Notes under the pieces: generated by a model
The model's database searches: none
What the model saw: the letters and a program-made list of their open reading frames with translations, nothing else
Told to the model about the DNA's origin: nothing
NCBI GenBank assembly: GCA_963809485.1
Contig: CAWEJX010000020.1
Coordinates: forward strand, 384,001-448,000
Direction: 5' to 3'
Length of the DNA: 64,000 nucleotides
Source: an uncultured Acidobacteriota bacterium
Lineage (GTDB): Bacteria > Acidobacteriota > UBA6911
Shown here: piece by piece, positions 1-7,384 of the stretch
Position numbering within the stretch: the stretch's first letter is position 1
Layout: each line of letters begins with the position of its first letter
Position numbers and translations under genes: made by a program

Positions 1-1059
1 TATGAACAGCGGAACGGCGTGAATGCCGCTGTCTTTATGCAGTTTTTCGAACAACTGGGCTTTGAACGGCCAATCGAGCACTCGTGCCAGTTTCTCCGGA
101 CCGGCCCGGAGTCCATCCAGAGTCCTGCGCCATGTCTCACAGACCTGTGGGGCAAAGGAAGGCATGTATTCATGATGCTGGTGACGCTCGGCGAGTTCTA
201 GATAGTGCGCCTGGAGATCGACTGCCGTGATCGTGCGGCCATCGGCCAAAGACAGCGGATGTTGCAGATCCCCTGAAACGCGGTGAAGGGCCTGAACAGG
301 ATCCTGCAGTTGAACCTTCCGGCCGGGTTCAAGACCCGCTTCGGCCATGGCCACCACCAGCGAGGTTGCACCGAGCTTCAAATAAAGCGCTGTCTCGCTA
401 TGTAAAGATTCCCCGCATATGACATGAAGCCGCCAGTAGCCGGGGCCGGCCAGGCTCTCGTCGCGCGTGTGAAAAATTCCACGGTAACAGCCGGTTGAAT
501 CATCACTGATGGGCTTCGAAAAGAAGAGAGAGCGAGGCGATAGGCAGAATGCCAGCCGGTTCGGTGAAAATGGACTGAAGCCGCCCGCTCCTGTGTAGAT
601 GATTCTTGTTACCAGATGCGGGATGAGGTCCGGGGCCAGGGAGTCGGGCCGGGTCCGGGTCAGGTAGGATTCATGCTGCCCCCATGTGCTGGGCACTCCG
701 CCGTTCAAACCTACATTCGACCGGAAAAGACTGATCTCGCAGTCGCCGTCCCGTTCCTCGAGCGCGGTCGCCAATTCGTTCAGCAGGTTCTCTCCAGCTT
801 TCACCTGGGCGACCGCCTCACGCAAATCGGGGGTTTCGGCTGCACACCATTCGGGGTGCCCGCCGGTATCGACATAAAATCGAGCGCCGGAGGTTGTAAA
901 GATCCCCTTGCCGCATGTTGCGGGCAGAAACCGCCAGCGTTCTATCGCCAGAGCGGTGAGCCGCTGGAGAATGGTCTGGCGGTCCATCGGAACGCCCTCC
1001 TTTGATGTTGCGGACACTGCAAATTCCGTTTCTATCCCCATGATTCGGTCCGTCGGCAT
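1..1059 (-). CDS. Pup-ligase/deamidase (PafA/Dop) family protein, PafA-like; 3' end lies outside the window
   Basis: Not in the ORF track because there is no stop in the window. Manual translation gives an open frame of 353 codons from ATG 1059 (AAGGAG upstream): MPTDRIMGIETEF...GARFYVDTGGHPEWCAAE...STWGQHESYL...LIPHLVTRIIYTGAG...RGIFHTRDE...WRLHVICGES...LYLKLGATSLV...LDWPFK. These match the ordered PafA/Dop motifs. Confidence 0.9.
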   Translation of the reverse strand, partial: MPTDRIMGIETEFAVSATSKEGVPMDRQTILQRLTALAIERWRFLPATCGKGIFTTSGARFYVDTGGHPEWCAAETPDLREAVAQVKAGENLLNELATALEERDGDCEISLFRSNVGLNGGVPSTWGQHESYLTRTRPDSLAPDLIPHLVTRIIYTGAGGFSPFSPNRLAFCLSPRSLFFSKPISDDSTGCYRGIFHTRDESLAGPGYWRLHVICGESLHSETALYLKLGATSLVVAMAEAGLEPGRKVQLQDPVQALHRVSGDLQHPLSLADGRTITAVDLQAHYLELAERHQHHEYMPSFAPQVCETWRRTLDGLRAGPEKLARVLDWPFKAQLFEKLHKDSGIHAVPLFI

Positions 1060-1228
1060 GATTATGGGCCTCTCCTTGTTGCCTCGACAGGGTCCCCGAA
1101 GTCCGTGCTCAGCAAAGGGTGCATGAGAACCTCAGAAAGCTGTTTTTCTATCGGCTCAACCTTCCACATTCCTGAATGCATCAAGTGCCCGGCGCGAGGT
1201 TGCCGCTAAAGCCTCAGTTGACAAACCG

Positions 1229-2326
1229 CTATAGAAGCCGCCGCCGCTCGTCTTCGGAAACCGGGGGACCTTCCATAACTTCAATGATCCGGCAGCCACG
1301 ACGGCTGGCGGCATCGATCAGGTCTATATAGTGCAACTCCCCGATCTCCTGCAGAGCGCTCTTGACCATGCCCTTGTATTTCCGGGTGATCCCGGCCGTT
1401 TCCGAGTCCAGGTAAATATTCAACGCCGCTCTGGCAATCATTGATTCTTCCTTGCTGGACTTGGCTTCCTGGAGGTCGTCAATATCATCCCGAATCCATG
1501 TCTCAACCAGGCGGCGGTGTTTTGAGGTCGCGTCCACCCATGTGTTCTGCGGGTTAAGCTCGAAAATGGACCTCTGAACAGGGATGCAGTCGTCGCAAAT
1601 GCCGTCGAAAAACTCGAAGCGCGTGTCGAGCATGACCATTACGGGCACTCCCTCATCCAGGATGACCTCCCGGGCAGCCTGAAACCATTCCGCCTCGATT
1701 TCGGGATACACAATTTCATCCTTCTCTATCAGCATCGTTCCCAGGGACAGGGAGTCCCATGGGTCCCCCCCGGTCCACATACCGATCGTGCGGCCGTCCG
1801 GCAATAGCATGAAATCAGGTATCAGGCAAAACGCACCTAGATTCCTGCTGATGACCTCCTCCCTGTTAAATTTGAACATGGTGAGTTCTGTCGCCCGCGC
1901 GACGCGAGCTTGCGGCTGATGCAACACAAATGCCAGGGATGCATCCATCCGCAGCAGGTCGTGGATCCGGGTGCCCTGGGGCAGAAGCCTGTGAATCCGA
2001 GCCATTTGATCTGCCGAGGGCTCGGCATCGCTGCCATGCTTGTACAGGCTTGAGACAGTAGAAAAACCCGACGGTATGGAGCATTCCGGTTTATGGAATC
2101 CTTCGGGGGACGTTTTGTTTTGAGGCTGTGAGGCATCCGGAGCAGCGGCACTCGTCTCCGCGCGGTCCCGGCGTCCTTCAATGGACCCGATGATGAAGAA
2201 TAAACATAAGGTCGCTACCAAAACGGCGAATGACAGCAACAATTTGGGGCCGTCAATCACTATAGTTAGGTCGTCGTCGGGCGTTTTGCTTTTTGCATTC
2301 GGCGGTTTCATAAAGGCCCCTTTCAC
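1229..2326 (-). CDS. Hypothetical protein with a single N-terminal membrane anchor
   Basis: 365-aa ORF with hydrophobic segment LLLSFAVLVATLCLFFIIGSIEGRR, a low-complexity linker and then an unrecognised domain with CDDC. The start overlaps the upstream stop (GTGA); an alternative ATG is at 2311. Confidence 0.7.
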   Translation of the reverse strand: MKGAFMKPPNAKSKTPDDDLTIVIDGPKLLLSFAVLVATLCLFFIIGSIEGRRDRAETSAAAPDASQPQNKTSPEGFHKPECSIPSGFSTVSSLYKHGSDAEPSADQMARIHRLLPQGTRIHDLLRMDASLAFVLHQPQARVARATELTMFKFNREEVISRNLGAFCLIPDFMLLPDGRTIGMWTGGDPWDSLSLGTMLIEKDEIVYPEIEAEWFQAAREVILDEGVPVMVMLDTRFEFFDGICDDCIPVQRSIFELNPQNTWVDATSKHRRLVETWIRDDIDDLQEAKSSKEESMIARAALNIYLDSETAGITRKYKGMVKSALQEIGELHYIDLIDAASRRGCRIIEVMEGPPVSEDERRRLL

Positions 2327-5300
2327 AGAGTGATCACGGCGCGAAATCCATGCGCCCGGCCCCTTCCATCATCATCCGCGTCGATCCAATCCACGGATTG
2401 AAGCTTGTCCGCCCCGTTGTTGCCCCTGCTTCCGACAAGAGCACGCTGACCGCCGGGATTCCGGTCGCGCGTCCATTCCCCGGATGCGGAGACCGCCCAA
2501 TCAGGGACAGACTCACCCAGACGGCGCCGGTAATGAATCAGGTTCCCCATAAGGTTCCACTCGAGGGCGGATGGCAGTCCCACAACCGTGCAATCCAGTC
2601 CAAGCAGCTTCGCGGTTTCCGGAAGAGCATTTCTCTGAAGGACATTCCACGAAACCAATTTGGGCCGGTTGCACAGCCGTTCGGAAGGCTTCTCCACATA
2701 TCTGTGTTCGGTCGATCTCCGGCCATGGGTCCGCAACTCGACCGCCACCCAACGCCCTGTCATCCTGGAGGATCCATTGGGGCCCGATGCCCGGCAGGGA
2801 TTTTCCAGCGGGTAATGCCATTCGGGATATTTCCGGAAGGGCTCCATCCCCTCCAAATCAAGTGAGGGGAGATAGAAAATATCAAAATCCAGCGACCTCA
2901 GTTGCTCGTATTTTTCAATGGATACATCTTCGGGCACGGGATGCATCTCACAGGACCGGCCCAAAAATCCGCCGAGCCATTGAAACATTCTGTATCGGAT
3001 GATTTGGCGCAACAACCAGCCGGGAGTGTGGTCAAAAAGCCCGGCGATATCCGAAACTTCACCACGCTCGGCCAACCACTTCGCCAGTGTTTGAAGCTTT
3101 TTCCGAACGGGCCAGTGTCCGCGGTAATTCAAATGGTGCGCATTCTGACGGGCTTTCTCCGATTCGAGGGCCAGGCGGGCAATGCGCACAAATCTTTCAT
3201 CATCGGGATAGAACTCTGCCGGCGTGCTTTCCCCGAGATGCACCTTTCGCCCCTCCGATACATCCTTCACCAGACGCGCTGCAACCTGCCGTATCGAGTC
3301 CTCGAGCGACAGGCCAATATCGGTGTTCTTCACAACCTTGTATTGGGAGGCATGCTGTTCCAGCCTCCCGTAGAAAGCATCTGCTTTTTGTCGGATATGG
3401 GAAAGCTCTCCGCCGGTTGCGGCTTCCTGCATCATCCGGAGCCAGGCATCATTGCTCTGGGACAGGCTGAGAATTTCTTTGTAGCCGCGCAATTCCCCCA
3501 GCGCTTCAGTCTCGCCCAACAGGGCTCCCATGGAGGGGCGGACTTGCGAATAATACGGCTCCTTTAGCCTCAGGCCCGACAGTTCCTGCTCCAGTAATCC
3601 CTCGGTGACCTTGAAGATGCTGTAAGCCGCTCCCATGAAGGCGTTCATTTCGACAAACGACCGTACCCAGAGCAGAAACGCGTCGGGATTCAGGGTGAAG
3701 CTGTTGCAGCTTTCCAGATAGCTCTGCACGGCAGCCAGCCGTTCTCCGTGTAACGCTTCCAACTGCTCCAGCGTCATTGCGCGAATTTTGAGTCGCCACT
3801 GCCAGATATCATGGAAATCGACCCAATGGATTGCGTCCCGTATTTCGGCCCGGACAGGCGCAGCAATGCGTTTGCCGAAATGAGCATGGCACTCGCGGTA
3901 AATTTCCTGCATGAATATGCCGACGGGGTGCTTCGGCTTCCCGATCCAGCGGCGTCCATCCGGTCCGGCGCATGTCTGTCCCGTCCTTGCAGCCTCATCC
4001 CAGGATTCGTCCTCTGATTCGCTGTCAACGGTCCCGTAGGAAGGCTGCAGGTTCCGGACCTGGAAAAGCCAATCCTTCGGAACCTGGCCGAGAAATACAA
4101 ACCTCTGGGTTGCATCCAGGGTAACCAGCTGGTTCTCGTAAGCCCTGAGGATGCCGGTGGCGCCGGATGCTCCCGTAATGGCCGCCTTGCCCTGTTCACG
4201 CATGACAATAGCGGTGTGACATCCCGGGCTGCCGATTTCCGTAATGGCCCCGGCGCAGCGACCGAGAACCCGTTCCCACAGGTTGGTGGTATTGGGAACA
4301 ACCAGAATGTCGCCCGGCCACACCTTCTGTTCAGCCTCATCCAGGGATCCTGCGACACACAATCTTCCGTCGGCGACGCCGGGGGATGCCGTAAAGCCTC
4401 CAAGGAACCAGCGCGACCGGCTGCAAGCGCGATCCAGACTCACTGCGACAAGACTGCACGTTTCCTCTCCCCACGCGGTCTCGGGCCTCACCTGCAATAT
4501 GGCGATTCTCCCATCGGCCTCGACGGCGAACTCCACATCCACATACTTCACCTGCTGATTGCCGCCAAAATAGTCCCCGATATAGCGGACCCGATGAGCC
4601 AGGCCCCTCACCTCGGTGGAACTCAATGCGAAATTGGCTCGTTCTTCAAACTCCGTCACGCAGGCGACGGTTGTGCCGAGCAAACCATCGAAGAATATCT
4701 TTTCGGATTTCTCGCCGAGAGTGCGTTTCACGATAGTCAAATCTACCGGATCGACAATCCATACGTCGGGTGTCGCAGATCCGCGGACCTCCCCCTCGCC
4801 CAGTCCATAATTGGCATGAATGCGGATCATGGGGGCTCCGGTCTCGAGATCCACCGTGAAGGCGGTGCCCGCCGCCCGCGCGTCTACCATTCTTTGCAGT
4901 ATGACGGCCATTTCCGTTCCGGCATGTTTGATGCCGCGGGAGTTGCGATAATGGACCGCGTTGATCCCGAACGCGGATATCCAAACCCTGCGCACAGATT
5001 CGATCACGGATTGAAGGCTTCCCTGATTCAGGCAAGTTTCATACTGGCCGGCAAAGGACGCCACCTGACCGTCTTCTGCCTTGGCCGAACTGCGCACGCT
5101 CACGCGGAAATGATCCCCGGCAAACCCGGCCCTCAGGGCATCATAGCCAGCTTTGATGCTTGCGGCAGTGCTTTCGGGAATGCCGGCAGCCTTCATCGCC
5201 TGCCGGATTTTCTCCGCCTGGCCATGGACCTGCTCTTCATCCCTCAGGCCATCCAGGTCGGCGATCAAGCAGGTCAGCTCTGGATTTTCGTTGAAAAAGC

Positions 5301-5475
5301 AGCGATAGGCTTCCGTGGTAATGACGAAAGCAGGAGGTATCCGAACACCGGGAAGAGGCAGTAGTTTCGCAAGATTTGCCGCTTTGCCGCCGACAAGGGA
5401 AAAATCTCTTGCCGCCTCGTCATAAAGCGTCACAACCAGCGGTTTGTTTGAGAATGTTTTGGAGGGATCGGACAT
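2323..5475 (-). CDS. PEP-utilising dikinase-like protein (ATP-grasp + phospho-His swivel + non-canonical C-terminal half)
   Basis: PPDK_N motifs VGGKAANL, VRSSAKAED, SFAGQYET, GLGE, DVEFA, ILQVRPET; mobile domain GCHTAIVMRE. No recognisable PEP/pyruvate TIM barrel follows. Confidence 0.85.
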   Translation of the reverse strand: MSDPSKTFSNKPLVVTLYDEAARDFSLVGGKAANLAKLLPLPGVRIPPAFVITTEAYRCFFNENPELTCLIADLDGLRDEEQVHGQAEKIRQAMKAAGIPESTAASIKAGYDALRAGFAGDHFRVSVRSSAKAEDGQVASFAGQYETCLNQGSLQSVIESVRRVWISAFGINAVHYRNSRGIKHAGTEMAVILQRMVDARAAGTAFTVDLETGAPMIRIHANYGLGEGEVRGSATPDVWIVDPVDLTIVKRTLGEKSEKIFFDGLLGTTVACVTEFEERANFALSSTEVRGLAHRVRYIGDYFGGNQQVKYVDVEFAVEADGRIAILQVRPETAWGEETCSLVAVSLDRACSRSRWFLGGFTASPGVADGRLCVAGSLDEAEQKVWPGDILVVPNTTNLWERVLGRCAGAITEIGSPGCHTAIVMREQGKAAITGASGATGILRAYENQLVTLDATQRFVFLGQVPKDWLFQVRNLQPSYGTVDSESEDESWDEAARTGQTCAGPDGRRWIGKPKHPVGIFMQEIYRECHAHFGKRIAAPVRAEIRDAIHWVDFHDIWQWRLKIRAMTLEQLEALHGERLAAVQSYLESCNSFTLNPDAFLLWVRSFVEMNAFMGAAYSIFKVTEGLLEQELSGLRLKEPYYSQVRPSMGALLGETEALGELRGYKEILSLSQSNDAWLRMMQEAATGGELSHIRQKADAFYGRLEQHASQYKVVKNTDIGLSLEDSIRQVAARLVKDVSEGRKVHLGESTPAEFYPDDERFVRIARLALESEKARQNAHHLNYRGHWPVRKKLQTLAKWLAERGEVSDIAGLFDHTPGWLLRQIIRYRMFQWLGGFLGRSCEMHPVPEDVSIEKYEQLRSLDFDIFYLPSLDLEGMEPFRKYPEWHYPLENPCRASGPNGSSRMTGRWVAVELRTHGRRSTEHRYVEKPSERLCNRPKLVSWNVLQRNALPETAKLLGLDCTVVGLPSALEWNLMGNLIHYRRRLGESVPDWAVSASGEWTRDRNPGGQRALVGSRGNNGADKLQSVDWIDADDDGRGRAHGFRAVITL

Positions 5476-5887
5476 ATTTCAAGCCCCGTTAAATCAAGCT
5501 GCTTTCAAGCCTGAGCACAGCATTGGGATTCCTTCCAGGCGCCAAATAGATTTCTTCGCTCCGGCCCGCATCGCATCTCTTATGCCGCCTCTGACCCCTT
5601 TAGCTTAAAACAGCCATCGCAGCCAACCTGCAGAAGCGGGCAAGTCACACAACAATGCTATGCAACCCGCTCAAGTTCATGGGCATAGAGCAGCGACAAA
5701 TTTTCAGATAACATGAAATCACAGGGGATCACATACGGTGGATAGATGGAGTATGGCGTGATGGCAAAAGTGGACCGTAGATAGTTTAAATGTGTGGCCT
5801 CCATAAGTCCTCTTTCCTAACAATTACACTTTCGAAAACCCCGTGTTCTTTGCCATACTCTGGGACCTGTTCGCATGGAGGGCCTCG

Positions 5888-7384
5888 ATGAATCTGGCAC
5901 ATAACCTTGAATCTTCGGCGCTGTTTTATCCAAACCACCCGGCTGTCCGGGAACCGGGCGGGGAGACGACCTATGGACAGCTCAACGAAATGGCAAGCCG
6001 CGTCGCATCCGGTCTTGTTCAGAAAGGCATCGTCCCCGGCGACCTGGTAGCCCTTTGTGCCCCGAATACCGCTGAGTGGCTTGCCGTTTACTTCGGCATC
6101 CTCAAAGCCGGGGCAGTTGCCACGACGATCTCCTGCCTGCTGACGGACCACGAATTCTCGAACTTGATTCTCCACTCCAGGCCGCGAGTCGTTTACGCAG
6201 ATGAATCCAGGCTTGAAACACTGAAGCGCATCCGTTCCTCGGCAGGGATTGAAATGATACTTTGTCGCAACGGAGATATCGATCTTGGGGGTTTTATGGC
6301 TCAGGGCACCCCTGCTTTCCGCAGCATTGAACGAGAGCGGCGCGACCCGATCGCAGTTCTTTACACAGGTGGCACGACCGGCTTTCCCAAGGGGGTCATG
6401 CTCACTCAGGAAGGAATGGATTTCTCCTGCCAGTCCAATCTGCTCTACGAGCGTTACACGCATGCGGACACGAGCCTTTGCTTCCTCCCTTTCAACCACG
6501 TCTTCGGGCAGATCTATATCATGCACCCGACAATTCTCAGCGCCGGCTGCCTGGAGCTCATGCCGAGTTTCGACATGGATCGCGTGCTTTGGCTTCTGGA
6601 GAATGACCGTCTGACCCGCTTTTATGCAGTGCCCACTATATTCACGCGGTTTATCGACATCCCCGACATCGGCAATAAATTCCGGAAGGTTCGATACTGT
6701 TTTTCCGGCGGGGCTGCGATGTCTTCCGGCCTTCTTAAATATTGGAAAGAACGAACCGGCATCACCATTGCTGACGGCTATGGGCTGACCGAATTCATGC
6801 CCATTACGTACAACAACTATCACCTTGAGCACCATGTATCCGGATCTGTAGGACGGTCCGTATCGGGTGTGGAACTGGAAATAAGGGATGAAAAAGGAAG
6901 GCAGGTGGCCGACGGGGAGAAAGGGGAAATATCAGTCCGTGGAATCAGCGCAATGAAGGGGTACCTGCGCGATCCTGAAGCCACCCGCGAAACCTTCTGG
7001 CCCGACGGCTGGCTTCGGACGGGCGATATCGGCGTGGTGGATTCGAGAGGCTTTGTTTACATCGTGGACCGGCTCAAGGACATGGTGATAACCGGGGGCG
7101 AGAATGTCTATCCGCGGGAAATCGAGGAAGCTATCTACTTGATGCCCGAAATTGAGGACTGTGCGGTCATAGGCGTACCGGACAAGCAGTGGGGAGAACG
7201 CGTTGTCGCCTATCTGGTGTTCAGGAAAGGCCAGCGTATTGAAATTGGCGAATTGAAAGACTCGCTAAAAGTCCGGCTATCGGCCTTCAAGCTGCCCAAG
7301 GAATATTTCATCGTGAAAGAGCTGCCGAAAAGTCCTCAGGGGAAAATACTCAGAAAAGAAGTACGCAAGCTGTACGCGCCGTAG
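5888..7384 (+). CDS. AMP-binding acyl-CoA synthetase (long-chain fatty-acid-CoA ligase family)
   Basis: YTGGTTGFPKG, GYGLTE, RTGD, DRLKDMVITGGENVYP, PKSPQGKI; GGAGG before ATG 5888. Confidence 0.9.
   Translation: MNLAHNLESSALFYPNHPAVREPGGETTYGQLNEMASRVASGLVQKGIVPGDLVALCAPNTAEWLAVYFGILKAGAVATTISCLLTDHEFSNLILHSRPRVVYADESRLETLKRIRSSAGIEMILCRNGDIDLGGFMAQGTPAFRSIERERRDPIAVLYTGGTTGFPKGVMLTQEGMDFSCQSNLLYERYTHADTSLCFLPFNHVFGQIYIMHPTILSAGCLELMPSFDMDRVLWLLENDRLTRFYAVPTIFTRFIDIPDIGNKFRKVRYCFSGGAAMSSGLLKYWKERTGITIADGYGLTEFMPITYNNYHLEHHVSGSVGRSVSGVELEIRDEKGRQVADGEKGEISVRGISAMKGYLRDPEATRETFWPDGWLRTGDIGVVDSRGFVYIVDRLKDMVITGGENVYPREIEEAIYLMPEIEDCAVIGVPDKQWGERVVAYLVFRKGQRIEIGELKDSLKVRLSAFKLPKEYFIVKELPKSPQGKILRKEVRKLYAP

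What the first reader, a model, noticed from the sequence alone, without database searches (positions are those of the whole stretch)
1..5475. Hidden PafA-like ligase in a probable non-actinobacterial genome, co-oriented with a novel dikinase and a membrane protein
Seen: an unlisted minus-strand frame (1059 to <1) keeps the PafA/Dop active-site motifs (GIETE, YVDxGxHPE, HESY, TRDE, RLHV, LDW). The DxGxHPE spacing and the absence of a long Dop loop resemble PafA (ligase) rather than Dop (DHAHPE). Its upstream neighbours are not arc/dop/pup/prcBA but a PEP-type dikinase and a membrane protein, and no GGE/GGQ-ending peptide lies directly upstream. Known: PafA ligates Pup/UBact through a gamma-glutamyl-phosphate. 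Inference: this is a divergent protein- or peptide-tagging system, possibly coupling phosphorylation and isopeptide ligation and possibly proteasome-independent.
Basis: partly seen in the sequence, partly recalled or inferred. Interest (0 to 1): 0.85.

Follow-up and report, generated by a model that had tools for sequence, protein, structure and literature searches.

The report
Extra Pup ligase in Ubl–Pup island
The hidden gene is a real PafA-type protein-tagging ligase, but it is a spare copy attached to a larger proteasome-free gene island that holds both a ubiquitin-like and a Pup-like tagging set, and its tie to the neighbouring dikinase is not conserved.

Summary
Window 1..1059 (-) is the first 353 codons of a 541-aa Pup_ligase protein (PF03136, E 3.9e-74). 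It is of the PafA type: no Dop loop, D-x-G-x-HPE spacing, and a position on the ligase side of the tree. The genome is acidobacterial and has HslV but no 20S proteasome.

Left of the window, 9.4-16 kb downstream on the same strand, lies a ten-gene operon: RING, E1, E2-like, YbjN-like, Ubl, JAB, Mpa, Dop-like, a Pup-like peptide ending GGQ, and PafA-like. It recurs in at least five acidobacterial families. The focal gene is one of three PafA-like paralogs. It is followed by an uncharacterised 630-aa protein, and a second paralog has the same kind of partner.

The dikinase and most of the membrane-protein gene are missing from the only other genome with a focal ortholog. That genome has also lost the operon's own PafA, so the focal type is its only intact ligase. 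A complex model places the Pup-like tail in the focal active site (0.75 against 0.02).

Most likely this is a paralogous Pup ligase of a dual-tag, proteasome-free system. It is a new variant of a known kind.

The parts
1..1059 (-). First 353 codons of the focal PafA-type Pup_ligase paralog. The full gene is G000:C20:383434-385059, 541 aa, and continues 567 bases left of the window.
   Evidence: PF03136 E 3.9e-74. Full-length translation. On the PafA side of the tree. dN/dS 0.16 against G006.
1060..1228 (-). 169-bp spacer between the membrane-protein gene and the focal gene, with an AAGGAG-type ribosome site about 9 nt before the ATG.
   Evidence: Sequence read. The spacer is also kept in G006 (blastn). 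The promoter/terminator scan of the plus-strand L009 locus covering this region found no more sites than chance.
1229..2326 (-). 365-aa protein with one N-terminal hydrophobic helix ('TM365'). No family assigned.
   Evidence: No Pfam or NCBIfam hit. In G006 only the last 57 codons survive, at 75% aa identity.
2323..5475 (-). 1050-aa dikinase-type protein: an ATP-grasp PPDK_N domain, a swivelling His domain, and an unassigned C-terminal part of about 590 aa. Its stop overlaps the TM365 start by 4 nt.
   Evidence: PF01326 E 9.5e-78 and PF00391 E 5.4e-14, with no PEP/pyruvate-binding domain hit. All NCBIfam matches are far below cut-off. The C-terminal part has only 3 other clusters.
1403..5542 (.). 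4.1-kb block (dikinase plus TM365 codons 1-308) present here but replaced by 46 bp in the nearest genome that carries a focal ortholog.
   Evidence: blastn of the G006 upstream flank: L015 1823-2300 matches C20:385403-384922, and L015 1582-1777 matches C20:389737-389542.
5476..5842 (.). Divergent intergenic region. The next gene (5843-7384, +) is an acyl-CoA-synthetase-like ORF, so the dikinase is the first gene of the minus-strand run.
   Evidence: ORF list. The acyl-CoA-synthetase name rests on my reading of the translation. No family search was run on it.

Best explanation
The focal ORF encodes an intact PafA-type carboxylate-amine ligase. It is one of three PafA-like paralogs, alongside one Dop-like gene, in a roughly 24-kb island of an acidobacterial chromosome that has no 20S proteasome.

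The core of the island is a ten-gene operon: RING E3, ThiF-type E1, an E2-like protein with an HPN...C motif, a tandem YbjN/chaperone-like protein, a 94-aa Ubl ending DAG, a JAB peptidase, an Mpa/ARC-like AAA unfoldase, a Dop-like gene, a 66-aa Pup-like peptide ending GGQ, and a PafA-like ligase.

The focal gene and the 630-aa protein after it form an add-on two-gene cassette. A second cassette of the same kind (a 573-aa PafA-like protein plus a 660-aa homologue of the 630-aa protein) lies at the other end of the island.

Proposed mechanism, inferred by homology:
1. The Dop-like enzyme deamidates the terminal Gln of the single Pup-like peptide.
2. The focal ligase binds that peptide's C-terminal helices in its C-domain groove.
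3. It phosphorylates the terminal Glu side chain with ATP.
4. It transfers the peptide to target lysines.
5. The 630-aa partner probably acts as a specificity factor or dedicated target.
6. Tagged proteins are handled by the Mpa-like ATPase without a proteasome.

The dikinase and membrane protein are lineage-specific neighbours, not conserved parts of the system.

Shown: family membership, PafA-side placement, gene content and synteny, absence of a 20S proteasome, and the indels in G006. Inferred: use of the Pup-like peptide, ligase activity, and the partner's role.
For: Family and type:
- PF03136 at E 3.9e-74.
- The conserved catalytic motifs are kept: GIETE, D64 within VDTGGHPE, HESY, TRDE and RLHV.
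- The one-residue insertion plus Gly after the catalytic Asp, and Ala at position 15 of Hecht et al.'s Table 1, are PafA states (PMC7947786 section 6, read; alignment).
- There is no Dop loop.
- In IQ-TREE the focal clade (6 rows, SH-aLRT 100) sits inside a 24-row clade of operon-type ligases (100). That clade is sister to the canonical PafA-like proteins (98) and lies apart from both Dop clades. FastTree gives the same placement.

Context:
- All four Pup_ligase genes lie in C20:363-385 kb.
- The neighbours include an Mpa-like gene (pup_AAA 303.6 bits), ThiF, JAB and Prok-RING.
- There is one Pup-like gene in the whole genome.
- The operon is syntenic in G001, G006, G023, G117, G242 and G278, and partly in G287, L039 and L051.
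- A Pup-like peptide was found in 9 of 9 loci that include the Dop-PafA junction.
- A Ubl ORF was found in 9 of 9 loci that include the YbjN-like-JAB gap.

No proteasome:
- G000 has a single PF00227 hit, which is HslV next to HslU.
- Six other operon-type genomes each have a single unlinked hit, and G278 has none. Three of 3 canonical loci have two hits between dop and pafA.
- Operon-type Mpa proteins end RY[IL] plus 3-4 further residues. Canonical ones end ...SRYL.

Cassette:
- The 630-aa and 660-aa proteins are 30% identical over 641 aligned columns, E 9e-69.
- Each follows a PafA-like gene. The same pairing is seen in G006, L041, L048, G023 and L051.

Use of the Pup-like peptide:
- G006 has a clean 1.4-kb deletion that removes codons 3-470 of the operon's PafA. 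The focal ortholog is therefore its only intact ligase, beside an intact Mpa, Dop and Pup.
- The complex model scores 0.75 against a best control of 0.02. The mark was reached by 58 of 80 solved complexes and 2 of 110 mismatched pairs. The three runs agree in at least 94% of their contacts, and the partner's pLDDT is at least 64. Pup residues 33-66 contact ligase residues 64-68 and the C-domain helices.

Selection: dN/dS is 0.16 for the focal gene and 0.21 for the partner.
Against: - No biochemical or expression data exist. No listed sequencing run holding the region is on record as RNA.
- PafA-Pup and Dop-Pup complexes have been solved, so the complex pass may reflect likeness to known structures rather than binding by this copy.
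- The focal gene is 12.9 kb from the Pup-like gene. It is separated from it by opposite-strand and unrelated genes, and by 280 bp from its own partner.
- The focal clade sits on a long stem (0.62).
- The TPEC motif, invariant in all other ligase and Dop rows aligned, reads AAET here. The alpha-loop matches neither the PafA nor the Dop signature.
- NCBIfam PafA scores 204 bits for the 353-aa part, and 244-254 bits for the full-length paralogs, against a cut-off of 551.
- The Dop-like gene of G000 carries a 1-bp insertion that splits it. Unless this is an assembly error, deamidation of GGQ would fail in this very genome.
- The whole Dop-like clade has unusual residues at conserved sites: GADVE, HLE and HLNF.
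- The partner family is not bound to Pup ligases. G178 has a strong member but no Pup_ligase gene. Of the 14 metagenome loci, 10 show no Pup_ligase homologue within the DNA held. At least six of those ten have a MoxR-like AAA_5 gene next to the partner homologue. Several are near-duplicates.
Confidence: 0.65

Rival explanations
1. The focal clade is a neofunctionalised ligase. It keeps the ATP-grasp-like chemistry but no longer uses the Pup-like peptide. Instead it ligates another carboxylate, for example a different peptide or a residue of its 630-aa partner, or it acts only on that partner.
For: - The stem branch is long (0.62) and the clade is small and distinct.
- The TPEC motif is relaxed within the clade: AAET, AAES, VGES, with TPEC kept in one member. 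The alpha-loop matches neither signature.
- The partner of unknown function is found at 3 of 3 focal loci where the downstream DNA could be judged. These are G000, G006, and P0005/P0123, the last inferred from equal contig length and source.
- The gene lies 12.9 kb from the Pup-like gene.
Against: - The C-terminal Pup-binding domain is kept.
- The complex model places the Pup-like tail in the active site.
- In G006 the focal ortholog is the only intact ligase next to an intact Mpa, Dop and Pup.
- There is only one Pup-like gene, and no other small ORF ending G[EQ] on the minus strand nearby.
Confidence: 0.2
2. One reading: the dikinase, membrane protein and ligase form one functional module, in which phosphoryl transfer by the dikinase is coupled to isopeptide ligation.
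For: - All three genes are co-oriented. The dikinase stop overlaps the TM365 start, and opposite-strand genes bound the dikinase-TM365-focal-630aa run on both sides.
- Logan contigs from 4 runs of 4 studies, 90-97% identical, bridge three junctions. X2 record 8 bridges focal to TM365. X2 record 9 and X3 record 17 bridge the 1403 boundary. X5 record 27 bridges TM365 to the dikinase.
- The TM365 3' remnant in G006 implies that the adjacency predates the deletion there.
Against: - G006 keeps the focal gene and its partner under purifying selection without the dikinase. G001 and G023, which carry the core operon, also lack a dikinase ortholog: their best matches are 28-38% identical and cover the N-terminal domains only.
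- The dikinase C-domain family has 3 other clusters, while the ligase has several hundred relatives. None of the three shares a contig length with focal orthologs.
- A 169-bp spacer and a separate ribosome site precede the focal gene.
- PafA chemistry needs no separate kinase. This follows from the established two-step PafA mechanism, which I recall and which the reference list of PMC7947786 cites.
Confidence: 0.08
3. The island is decaying in this lineage, and the focal gene is a redundant duplicate with no current function.
For: - The Dop-like gene is frameshifted in G000.
- G006 has two deletions.
- The distribution is patchy. Pup_ligase-family matches to the focal protein were found in 3 of 24 genomes of the genus, and in 5 of 136 other genomes of the class.
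Against: - The focal ORF is intact in G000, in G006 and in four further metagenome clusters at 58-91% identity.
- The catalytic residues are kept.
- dN/dS is 0.16.
- The core operon is conserved across at least five acidobacterial families.
- The frameshift may be an assembly error.
Confidence: 0.05

Closest known systems
PafA, the Pup-protein ligase of Actinobacteria (Corynebacterium glutamicum structures 4B0T and 4BJR)
   Same: - The same Pfam family.
- The alignment runs unbroken over residues 3-340 (E 1.8e-39).
- It has GhExE, the catalytic Asp followed by a one-residue insertion and Gly, HPE, TRDE and RLH.
- It has no Dop loop.
- It falls on the ligase side of the tree.
- It is predicted to hold a peptide ending GGQ or GGE in the same groove.
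   Different: - 204 bits against the 551-bit equivalog cut-off (N-terminal 353 aa only).
- An insertion of about 65 aa after the LDW helix and a C-terminal tail of about 50 aa, both shared with other Gram-negative PafA-like proteins.
- The alpha-loop signature residues are not kept.
- AAET stands in place of TPEC.
- It is not adjacent to pup or prcBA, and the genome has no 20S proteasome.
Dop, the depupylase/deamidase (Acidothermus 4B0R, Mycobacterium 5LRT)
   Same: It gives the best PDB sequence match (E 2.7e-48, 168 bits) over residues 53-339 and 415-489. The active-site cradle is shared.
   Different: The focal protein lacks the Dop loop of about 32 extra residues and the D-H-A-HPE arrangement. 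It lies outside both Dop clades. A separate Dop-like gene exists in the island.
Canonical Pup/UBact-type proteasome loci of Gram-negative bacteria, here the acidobacterial genomes G051, G052 and G084
   Same: They hold an Mpa-like ATPase, Dop and a PafA-like ligase of about 570 aa with the same C-domain insertion.
   Different: - Those loci have two PF00227 proteasome genes between dop and pafA.
- Their Mpa proteins end in ...SRYL.
- The G052 Dop passes the Dop equivalog cut-off, at 512 bits against 492; G084's scores 487.6, just under it.
- The island here has none of these features and adds a ubiquitin-like module.
- That UBact peptides end R[T/S]G[E/Q] is recalled and was not tested. The peptide here ends RQxGGQ.
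Proteasome-less Pup ligase neighbourhoods of Plesiocystis and Rhodopirellula (Iyer, Burroughs and Aravind 2008, PMC2588565; passages read)
   Same: The Pup ligase and Pup occur outside Actinobacteria with no linked proteasome genes, and beside a membrane protein.
   Different: Those ligases carry four inserted transmembrane segments. The focal protein has none, and its link to the membrane protein is not conserved. Acidobacteria are not mentioned in that paper (0 occurrences).
Prokaryotic E1-E2-RING-JAB-Ubl operons (Burroughs, Iyer and Aravind 2011, recalled and not held; and the Caldiarchaeum type, passages of PMC11354881 read)
   Same: - Prok-RING_1, ThiF and JAB hits.
- An E2-like HPN...C motif.
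- A 94-aa Ubl with a weak YukD match (E 0.077).
   Different: Here that module is in one co-oriented run with an Mpa-like ATPase, a Dop-like gene, a Pup-like peptide and PafA-like ligases. I could not check whether the 2011 paper already describes this fusion.
PEP synthase, rifampicin phosphotransferase and PigC-type dikinases (for the upstream neighbour)
   Same: An N-terminal ATP-grasp domain and a swivelling His domain. The best NCBIfam matches are PEP synthase models at 289-295 bits.
   Different: All matches are far below cut-off and cover residues 12-467 only. The 590-aa C-terminal part has no family and only 3 other clusters.

Membership tests
Pup_ligase (PF03136), carboxylate-amine ligase fold | Profile match above the gathering score | tested here: met
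   250.7 bits against 25, E 3.9e-74, residues 5-346. The C-terminal profile positions 362-440 match at C20:383593-383856.
Pup_ligase (PF03136), carboxylate-amine ligase fold | GhExE nucleotide/metal motif, the catalytic Asp before HPE, and the HExY, RDE and RLH motifs | tested here: met
   GIETE, VDTGGHPE, HESY, TRDE and RLHV are present in the focal protein and its five orthologs.
PafA (TIGR03686 equivalog) | Score at or above NCBI's equivalog cut-off of 551.3 bits | tested here: not met
   204.3 bits for the 353 aa inside the window. The full-length focal protein was not scanned. The full-length paralogs score 243.9 and 254.4 bits.
PafA (TIGR03686 equivalog) | PafA states next to the catalytic Asp: a one-residue insertion, Gly at position 11 and Ala at position 15 of Hecht et al. 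Table 1 | tested here: met
   V-D-T-G-G-HPE-W-C-A-A. The insertion, Gly and Ala are PafA states, while Val at position 9 is the Dop state.
PafA (TIGR03686 equivalog) | PafA alpha-loop signature (H, W, E, G, S, S, A, R, S at positions 25-33 of Table 1) | tested here: not met
   By my transfer of the alignment to the numbering of Table 1, only 1 of 9 positions (Ser at position 29) has the PafA state and 1 (Phe at position 25) has the Dop state. The region is FFSKPISDDSTGCY.
PafA (TIGR03686 equivalog) | Groups with PafA rather than Dop in a tree | tested here: met
   It is sister to the canonical PafA-like rows with SH-aLRT 98, and both Dop clades lie outside. No actinobacterial sequences could be included. 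The canonical references are acidobacterial proteins typed by NCBIfam.
PafA (TIGR03686 equivalog) | Gene adjacent to pup and the proteasome genes | tested here: not met
   The nearest Pup-like gene is 12.9 kb away. The genome has no 20S genes.
PafA (TIGR03686 equivalog) | ATP-dependent ligation of Pup-Glu to lysine | not testable with these tools
   Only a complex model is available: 0.75 against a best control of 0.02. Like complexes have been solved.
Dop (TIGR03688 equivalog) | Dop loop, a D-H-A-HPE active site and a score at or above 492.3 bits | tested here: not met
   201.6 bits, with the alignment starting only at residue 53. The loop is absent and the focal protein has D-T-G-G-HPE.
Pup / UBact modifier (for the 66-aa peptide of the island) | A small protein of 50-90 aa ending G[EQ], next to a ligase gene | tested here: met
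   66 aa ending GGQ, lying between the Dop-like and PafA-like genes. It is conserved in 9 of 9 loci. It has no Pfam or NCBIfam hit. The criterion comes from PMC2588565.
PEP synthase / pyruvate phosphate dikinase (for the upstream neighbour) | A PEP/pyruvate-binding C-terminal domain and an equivalog score | tested here: not met
   Only PPDK_N and the mobile domain match. The best NCBIfam score is 295 bits against a cut-off of 598, covering residues 12-467.
Known anti-phage defence systems (PADLOC 2.0) | A match of the focal ligase, its partner or the dikinase to a defence model | tested here: not met
   0 families for each of the three. ThiF and JAB match only the E1 and JAB parts of the E1-E2 and JAB models, with E values from 5e-12 to 5e-4.

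The most novel reading that the evidence does not exclude
The island is a proteasome-free 'dual-tag' machine. A complete ubiquitin-like cascade (E1, E2, RING E3, Ubl, JAB) and a complete Pup cascade (Mpa, Dop, Pup, PafA) are co-transcribed and act on each other or on shared targets. The add-on cassettes, each a PafA paralog plus a 630-660-aa partner, work as exchangeable targeting modules: each ligase-partner pair directs the single Pup-like tag to a different client for unfolding or segregation by the Mpa-like ATPase. The patchy spread, the TIR-Sel1 neighbour and the likeness of the E1 and JAB genes to CBASS/Bil parts would also fit a conflict or stress-response role.
Probability: 0.25. Interest if true: 0.85.

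Novelty: new variant of a known kind. Interest (0 to 1): 0.6.

Why it matters
Pupylation is studied almost only in Actinobacteria, where one ligase feeds a proteasome. This locus differs in five ways:
- It has three ligase paralogs for one modifier.
- It has no 20S proteasome.
- Its Mpa-like ATPase does not end in the docking motif; extra residues follow it.
- Each spare ligase is paired with an uncharacterised partner.
- The Pup genes share one co-oriented run with an E1-E2-RING-Ubl-JAB set.

If the two tagging chemistries work together, this would be a bacterial case of cross-talk between two unrelated protein-tagging systems. It would also offer a tractable way to ask what Pup tagging does without a proteasome.

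G006 keeps only the focal-type ligase, while G001 and G023 keep only the operon type. These natural variants give ready-made comparisons.

The rare dikinase, with its 590-aa domain of no known family, is a separate and smaller curiosity.

Tried and rejected
**Partner fold.** The AlphaFold2 model of the 630-aa protein (10-row alignment) has mean pLDDT 70.9. Foldseek against the PDB gave no match at E <= 0.001, and the best TM-score was 0.16. Its fold remains unassigned.

**Partner family.**
- Pfam found nothing for the partner at E <= 10. Scanning all 10 members of A1 gave one chance-level hit.
- The protein atlas returned only unnamed clusters, plus one in which 18% of members carry DUF5682. 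I treated this as a lead and did not follow it.

**Promoters and terminators.** The scan around the focal gene found no more sites than shuffled sequence.

**Expression.** No RNA holder was listed for the island, so nothing can be said about expression.

**Sequencing runs.**
- No run held more than 0.20 of the sampled words, so the source sample was not available.
- As a result I could not check the 1-bp insertion in the Dop-like gene against reads.
- Stretches of the window without contig cover are not evidence of anything.

**Defence reading.** PADLOC gave nothing for the focal ligase, its partner or the dikinase.

**Literature.**
- Eight counted searches found no open paper describing Pup ligases in Acidobacteria or a combined Ubl-Pup operon.
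- The paper most likely to describe the Ubl half (Burroughs et al. 2011, PMC5938088) is not held. Prior description therefore cannot be excluded.
- Supplements of PMC7947786 and PMC2588565, which hold their alignments and species lists, were not opened and may bear on this.

**Contigs of distant orthologs.** I compared contig lengths as a weak proxy.

**Rejected idea.** I considered that the 297-aa protein might be the Ubl. Its model (pLDDT 80.8) matches the YbjN and type III chaperone folds instead.

Full report
**1. The observation**

The ORF listing gives a minus-strand ORF from 1059 to the left end of the window: 353 aa with an ATG start. It matches Pfam Pup_ligase at E 3.9e-74 over residues 5-346. 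All six named motifs are present.

- The window is G000:C20:384001-448000. The gene runs on to C20:383434, giving 541 aa.
- An AAGGAG-type ribosome site precedes the ATG.
- Against its ortholog in G006, dN/dS is 0.16.
- The two upstream genes are as described. One is a 365-aa protein with a single N-terminal hydrophobic helix and no family. The other is a 1050-aa protein with a PPDK_N domain and a swivelling His domain, plus a 590-aa C-terminal part that matches nothing.

**2. PafA-like or Dop-like**

NCBIfam scores the window part almost equally for PafA (204.3 bits) and Dop (201.6 bits). Both are far under the equivalog cut-offs, and the Dop alignment starts only at residue 53. The best PDB sequence match is Dop (168 bits, against 139 for PafA). 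That alignment again skips the N-terminus: focal residues 19-52 stand where Acidothermus Dop has residues 17-82, so there is no Dop loop.

Hecht et al. 2020 list the positions that separate the two enzymes (PMC7947786, section 6 read).
- Next to the catalytic Asp the focal protein has the PafA-type extra residue and Gly, and Ala at position 15.
- Its alpha-loop fits neither enzyme.

In an IQ-TREE tree of 36 rows the focal clade (6 rows, SH-aLRT 100) lies inside a 24-row clade of long ligases (100). That clade is sister to canonical PafA-like proteins (98). Canonical Dop and the operon's Dop-like clade fall outside. A 67-row FastTree agrees. No actinobacterial sequences were available. The canonical references are acidobacterial proteins, one of which passes NCBI's Dop cut-off.

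**3. The organism**

The only close hit in genome contigs is a MAG titled 'uncultured Acidobacteriota bacterium', at 87% identity. The genome search places G000 in a phylum where 16 of 401 sampled genomes, counting G000, have a Pup_ligase gene. The island lies on the same 1.36-Mb contig as the 16S rRNA gene, so it is not a stray contaminant contig.

**4. What lies left of the window**

All four Pup_ligase genes of the genome sit in C20:363-385 kb. Reading downstream from the focal gene on the minus strand gives the following:

| Gene | Evidence |
|---|---|
| 630-aa protein, no family | |
| TIR-Sel1 protein (opposite strand) | |
| glyoxalase-like protein | |
| Prok-RING_1 protein | |
| ThiF-type E1 | |
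| 171-aa protein with an HPN...C motif conserved across the eight orthologs printed; I read it as an E2 signature (motif recalled) | |
| 297-aa protein; model (pLDDT 80.8) is two YbjN / type III chaperone-like domains | |
| 94-aa ORF ending DAG, with a weak YukD match | |
| JAB peptidase with an intact HxH...D motif | |
| Mpa/ARC-like AAA ATPase, pup_AAA 303.6 bits | |
| Dop-like gene, split in two frames | |
| 66-aa peptide ending GGQ | |
| 558-aa PafA-like gene | |
| 283-aa unknown protein | |
| M50 peptidase | |
| 573-aa PafA-like gene | |
| 660-aa protein | |

The 630-aa and 660-aa proteins are homologous: 30% identity over 641 aligned columns, E 9e-69. The island therefore holds two cassettes of the form 'PafA-like ligase plus a 630-660-aa partner' around a central operon.

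**5. Conservation of the central operon**

The run RING - E1 - E2-like - YbjN-like - Ubl - JAB - Mpa - Dop-like - Pup-like - PafA-like is syntenic in several places.
- Three genomes of the same genus: G001, G006 and G023.
- Three genomes of other acidobacterial families: G117, G242 and G278.
- Partly in G287, which is a short contig.
- In a far more divergent form in G231.
- Two metagenome contigs, L039 and L051.

The Pup-like peptide was found in 9 of 9 loci that include the Dop-PafA junction. All nine end RQxGGQ. The Ubl ORF was found in 9 of 9 loci that include the YbjN-like-JAB gap. It ends at DAG or EAG in four loci and carries a short extension in five. G000 has one Pup-like gene in the whole genome.

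**6. No proteasome**

G000 has a single PF00227 hit. Its translation and the HslU-like gene next to it identify it as HslV.
- Six other operon-type genomes each have one unlinked hit, and G278 (83% complete) has none.
- The three canonical loci examined each have two proteasome genes between dop and pafA.
- Canonical Mpa proteins end ...SRYL. Operon-type ones have RY[IL] followed by 3-4 more residues.

I recall that proteasome docking needs the Tyr-X at the very C-terminus. If so, these ATPases cannot dock in the known way.

**7. Is the dikinase part of it**

G006 has the focal ortholog and its partner but no ortholog of the dikinase. G001 and G023 also have none.

blastn shows that the DNA on either side of a 4.1-kb block is only 46 bp apart in G006. 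The block (window 1403-5542) holds the dikinase and TM365 codons 1-308. The last 57 codons of TM365 remain as a remnant, so this is most simply a deletion in G006.

Logan contigs from four wetland or soil runs, 90-97% identical to the window, bridge three junctions: focal to TM365, the 1403 boundary, and TM365 to dikinase. Close strains therefore keep the arrangement.

The dikinase's C-terminal part has only three other clusters, at 51, 43 and 43% identity. None is on a contig of the length that carries P0005 or P0006.

The adjacency is real but narrow. The ligase persists without the dikinase.

**8. Does the focal ligase use the Pup-like peptide**

Three lines point that way.
- The C-terminal domain that binds Pup in PafA and Dop is kept.
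- The complex model scores 0.75 against a best control of 0.02. Runs agree in at least 94% of contacts and the partner's pLDDT is at least 64. The mark was reached by 58 of 80 solved complexes and 2 of 110 mismatched pairs. Pup residues 33-66 lie on the C-domain helices and reach residues 64-68 at the catalytic Asp. Like complexes have been solved, so this shows likeness and not proof.
- G006 has a clean 1.4-kb deletion of codons 3-470 of the operon's own PafA-like gene. Mpa, Dop and Pup are intact there, and the focal ortholog is the only full ligase in that genome. G001 and G023 show the reverse pattern, with the operon ligase and no focal type.

**9. Points against, and loose ends**

- The focal clade sits on a long stem. 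It has AAET where every other ligase and Dop row aligned has TPEC.
- It is rare. Five other clusters at 58-91% identity turned up in the protein search. One of 136 other genomes of the class has it.
- The Dop-like gene of G000 has a 1-bp insertion relative to G006 and L039. I could not check it against reads.
- The whole Dop-like clade has odd residues at conserved sites: GADVE for GhExE, HLE for HPE, and HLNF for HENY. Yet every Pup-like peptide ends in Gln and should need deamidation.
- The partner family is not bound to Pup ligases. A profile search found 474 representatives at E <= 0.001. Seven of 401 phylum genomes have it, including G178, which has no Pup_ligase gene.
- Of the 14 metagenome loci, ten show no Pup_ligase homologue within the DNA held. 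At least six of those ten have a MoxR-like AAA_5 gene next to the partner homologue. L044, L049 and L050 look like copies of one locus and should not be counted separately.

**10. Comparison with what is known**

Pup ligases outside Actinobacteria, including proteasome-less ones next to membrane proteins, were reported in 2008 (PMC2588565, passages read). Hecht et al. list several phyla with sporadic homologs and do not mention Acidobacteria. NCBI already names relatives 'PafA2 family protein' in Terracidiphilus, Blastocatellia and other MAGs.

E1-E2-RING-JAB-Ubl operons in bacteria are known from Burroughs et al. 2011, which I could not read. My eight counted searches found no open paper on the combination.

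I file the focal gene as a Pup_ligase family member of PafA type, but not as a PafA equivalog. I file the island as a new variant of known kinds.

**11. Verdict**

The gene is ligase-like and the system is proteasome-free. The dikinase coupling is not supported, and the system is not self-contained.
- Interest is 0.6. This is less for the focal gene alone than for the dual Ubl-Pup, multi-ligase, proteasome-free island it belongs to.

Noticed in passing
G000:C20:370640-372350 (L012 5640-7350, left of the window): The Dop-like gene of G000 is split by a 1-bp C insertion near C20:371544 relative to G006 and metagenome contig L039. It is a single frame in G001, G006, G023 and L051.
   Followed up: partly
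Dop-like genes of L028, L030, L032, L051, L055 and L057: The operon's Dop-like clade has G-A-D-V-E for GhExE, HLE for HPE and HLNF for HENY, yet all the Pup-like peptides end in Gln. Either this is an altered deamidase or it has another role.
   Followed up: partly
L012 10333-10617 (-), between the YbjN-like and JAB genes: An unlisted 94-aa ORF ending ...QPNIDAG is conserved in 9 of 9 loci. In five of them it carries a short C-terminal extension. It gives a weak YukD hit (E 0.077) and is a likely ubiquitin-like modifier of the E1/E2/RING/JAB set.
   Followed up: partly
L012 11544-12059 (-): A 171-aa protein with no family hit has an HPN(I/V)...(I/V)C(I/L/V)G motif conserved in all nine copies. 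I read it as an E2 (UBC-like) active site. The motif is recalled, and no structure was predicted.
   Followed up: partly
L012 7356-9047 (-) and its orthologs: Operon-type Mpa-like ATPases end RY[IL] plus 3-4 residues, while the Mpa proteins of the acidobacterial loci with proteasome genes end ...SRYL. The docking-type motif appears to be internalised where there is no 20S proteasome.
   Followed up: yes
G006:C78 (L028 2819-3088): G006 has a clean 1.4-kb deletion of codons 3-470 of the operon's PafA-like gene, directly after the Pup-like stop codon.
   Followed up: yes
window 2323-5475 (-): The dikinase has a 590-aa C-terminal part with no family and only 3 other clusters in 5.8 billion proteins. 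Its substrate is unknown. The swivel-domain His is present in a G-C-H-T-A context.
   Followed up: partly
L012 15015-15923 (+): A TIR-Sel1 protein on the opposite strand lies between the focal cassette and the operon. It is conserved in G006 and L039. PADLOC gives only a weak PDC-S66 match (E 2.3e-4).
   Followed up: no
L009 660-930 (-), the 280-bp spacer between the focal gene and the 630-aa gene: The spacer holds three copies of an ACGCTGA(C/G)A word and an 8-bp GC-rich hairpin (CCTCCGGC-TTT-GCCGGAGG). This may be a regulatory site or a transcript end.
   Followed up: no
L040, L042, L043, L045, L046, L050: Distant relatives of the 630-aa protein (about 27-31% identity, 705-753 aa) have a MoxR-like AAA_5 ATPase gene of about 320 aa next to them: directly upstream in five loci and directly downstream in L043. 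In L042 a Ser/Thr kinase-TPR protein follows.
   Followed up: partly
one search hits such as P0097 and P0100; G242:C148: Many relatives of the ligase are 690-820 aa long, and some carry C-terminal TPR repeats. The G242 copy lies in an open frame of 1178 aa. These may be fused substrate-recognition parts.
   Followed up: no
window 6319-6552: Metagenome contig depth jumps about ten-fold here, with many loose ends. This is the conserved core of the acyl-CoA-synthetase-like ORF, which is shared by many organisms. It is not a feature of this genome.
   Followed up: no
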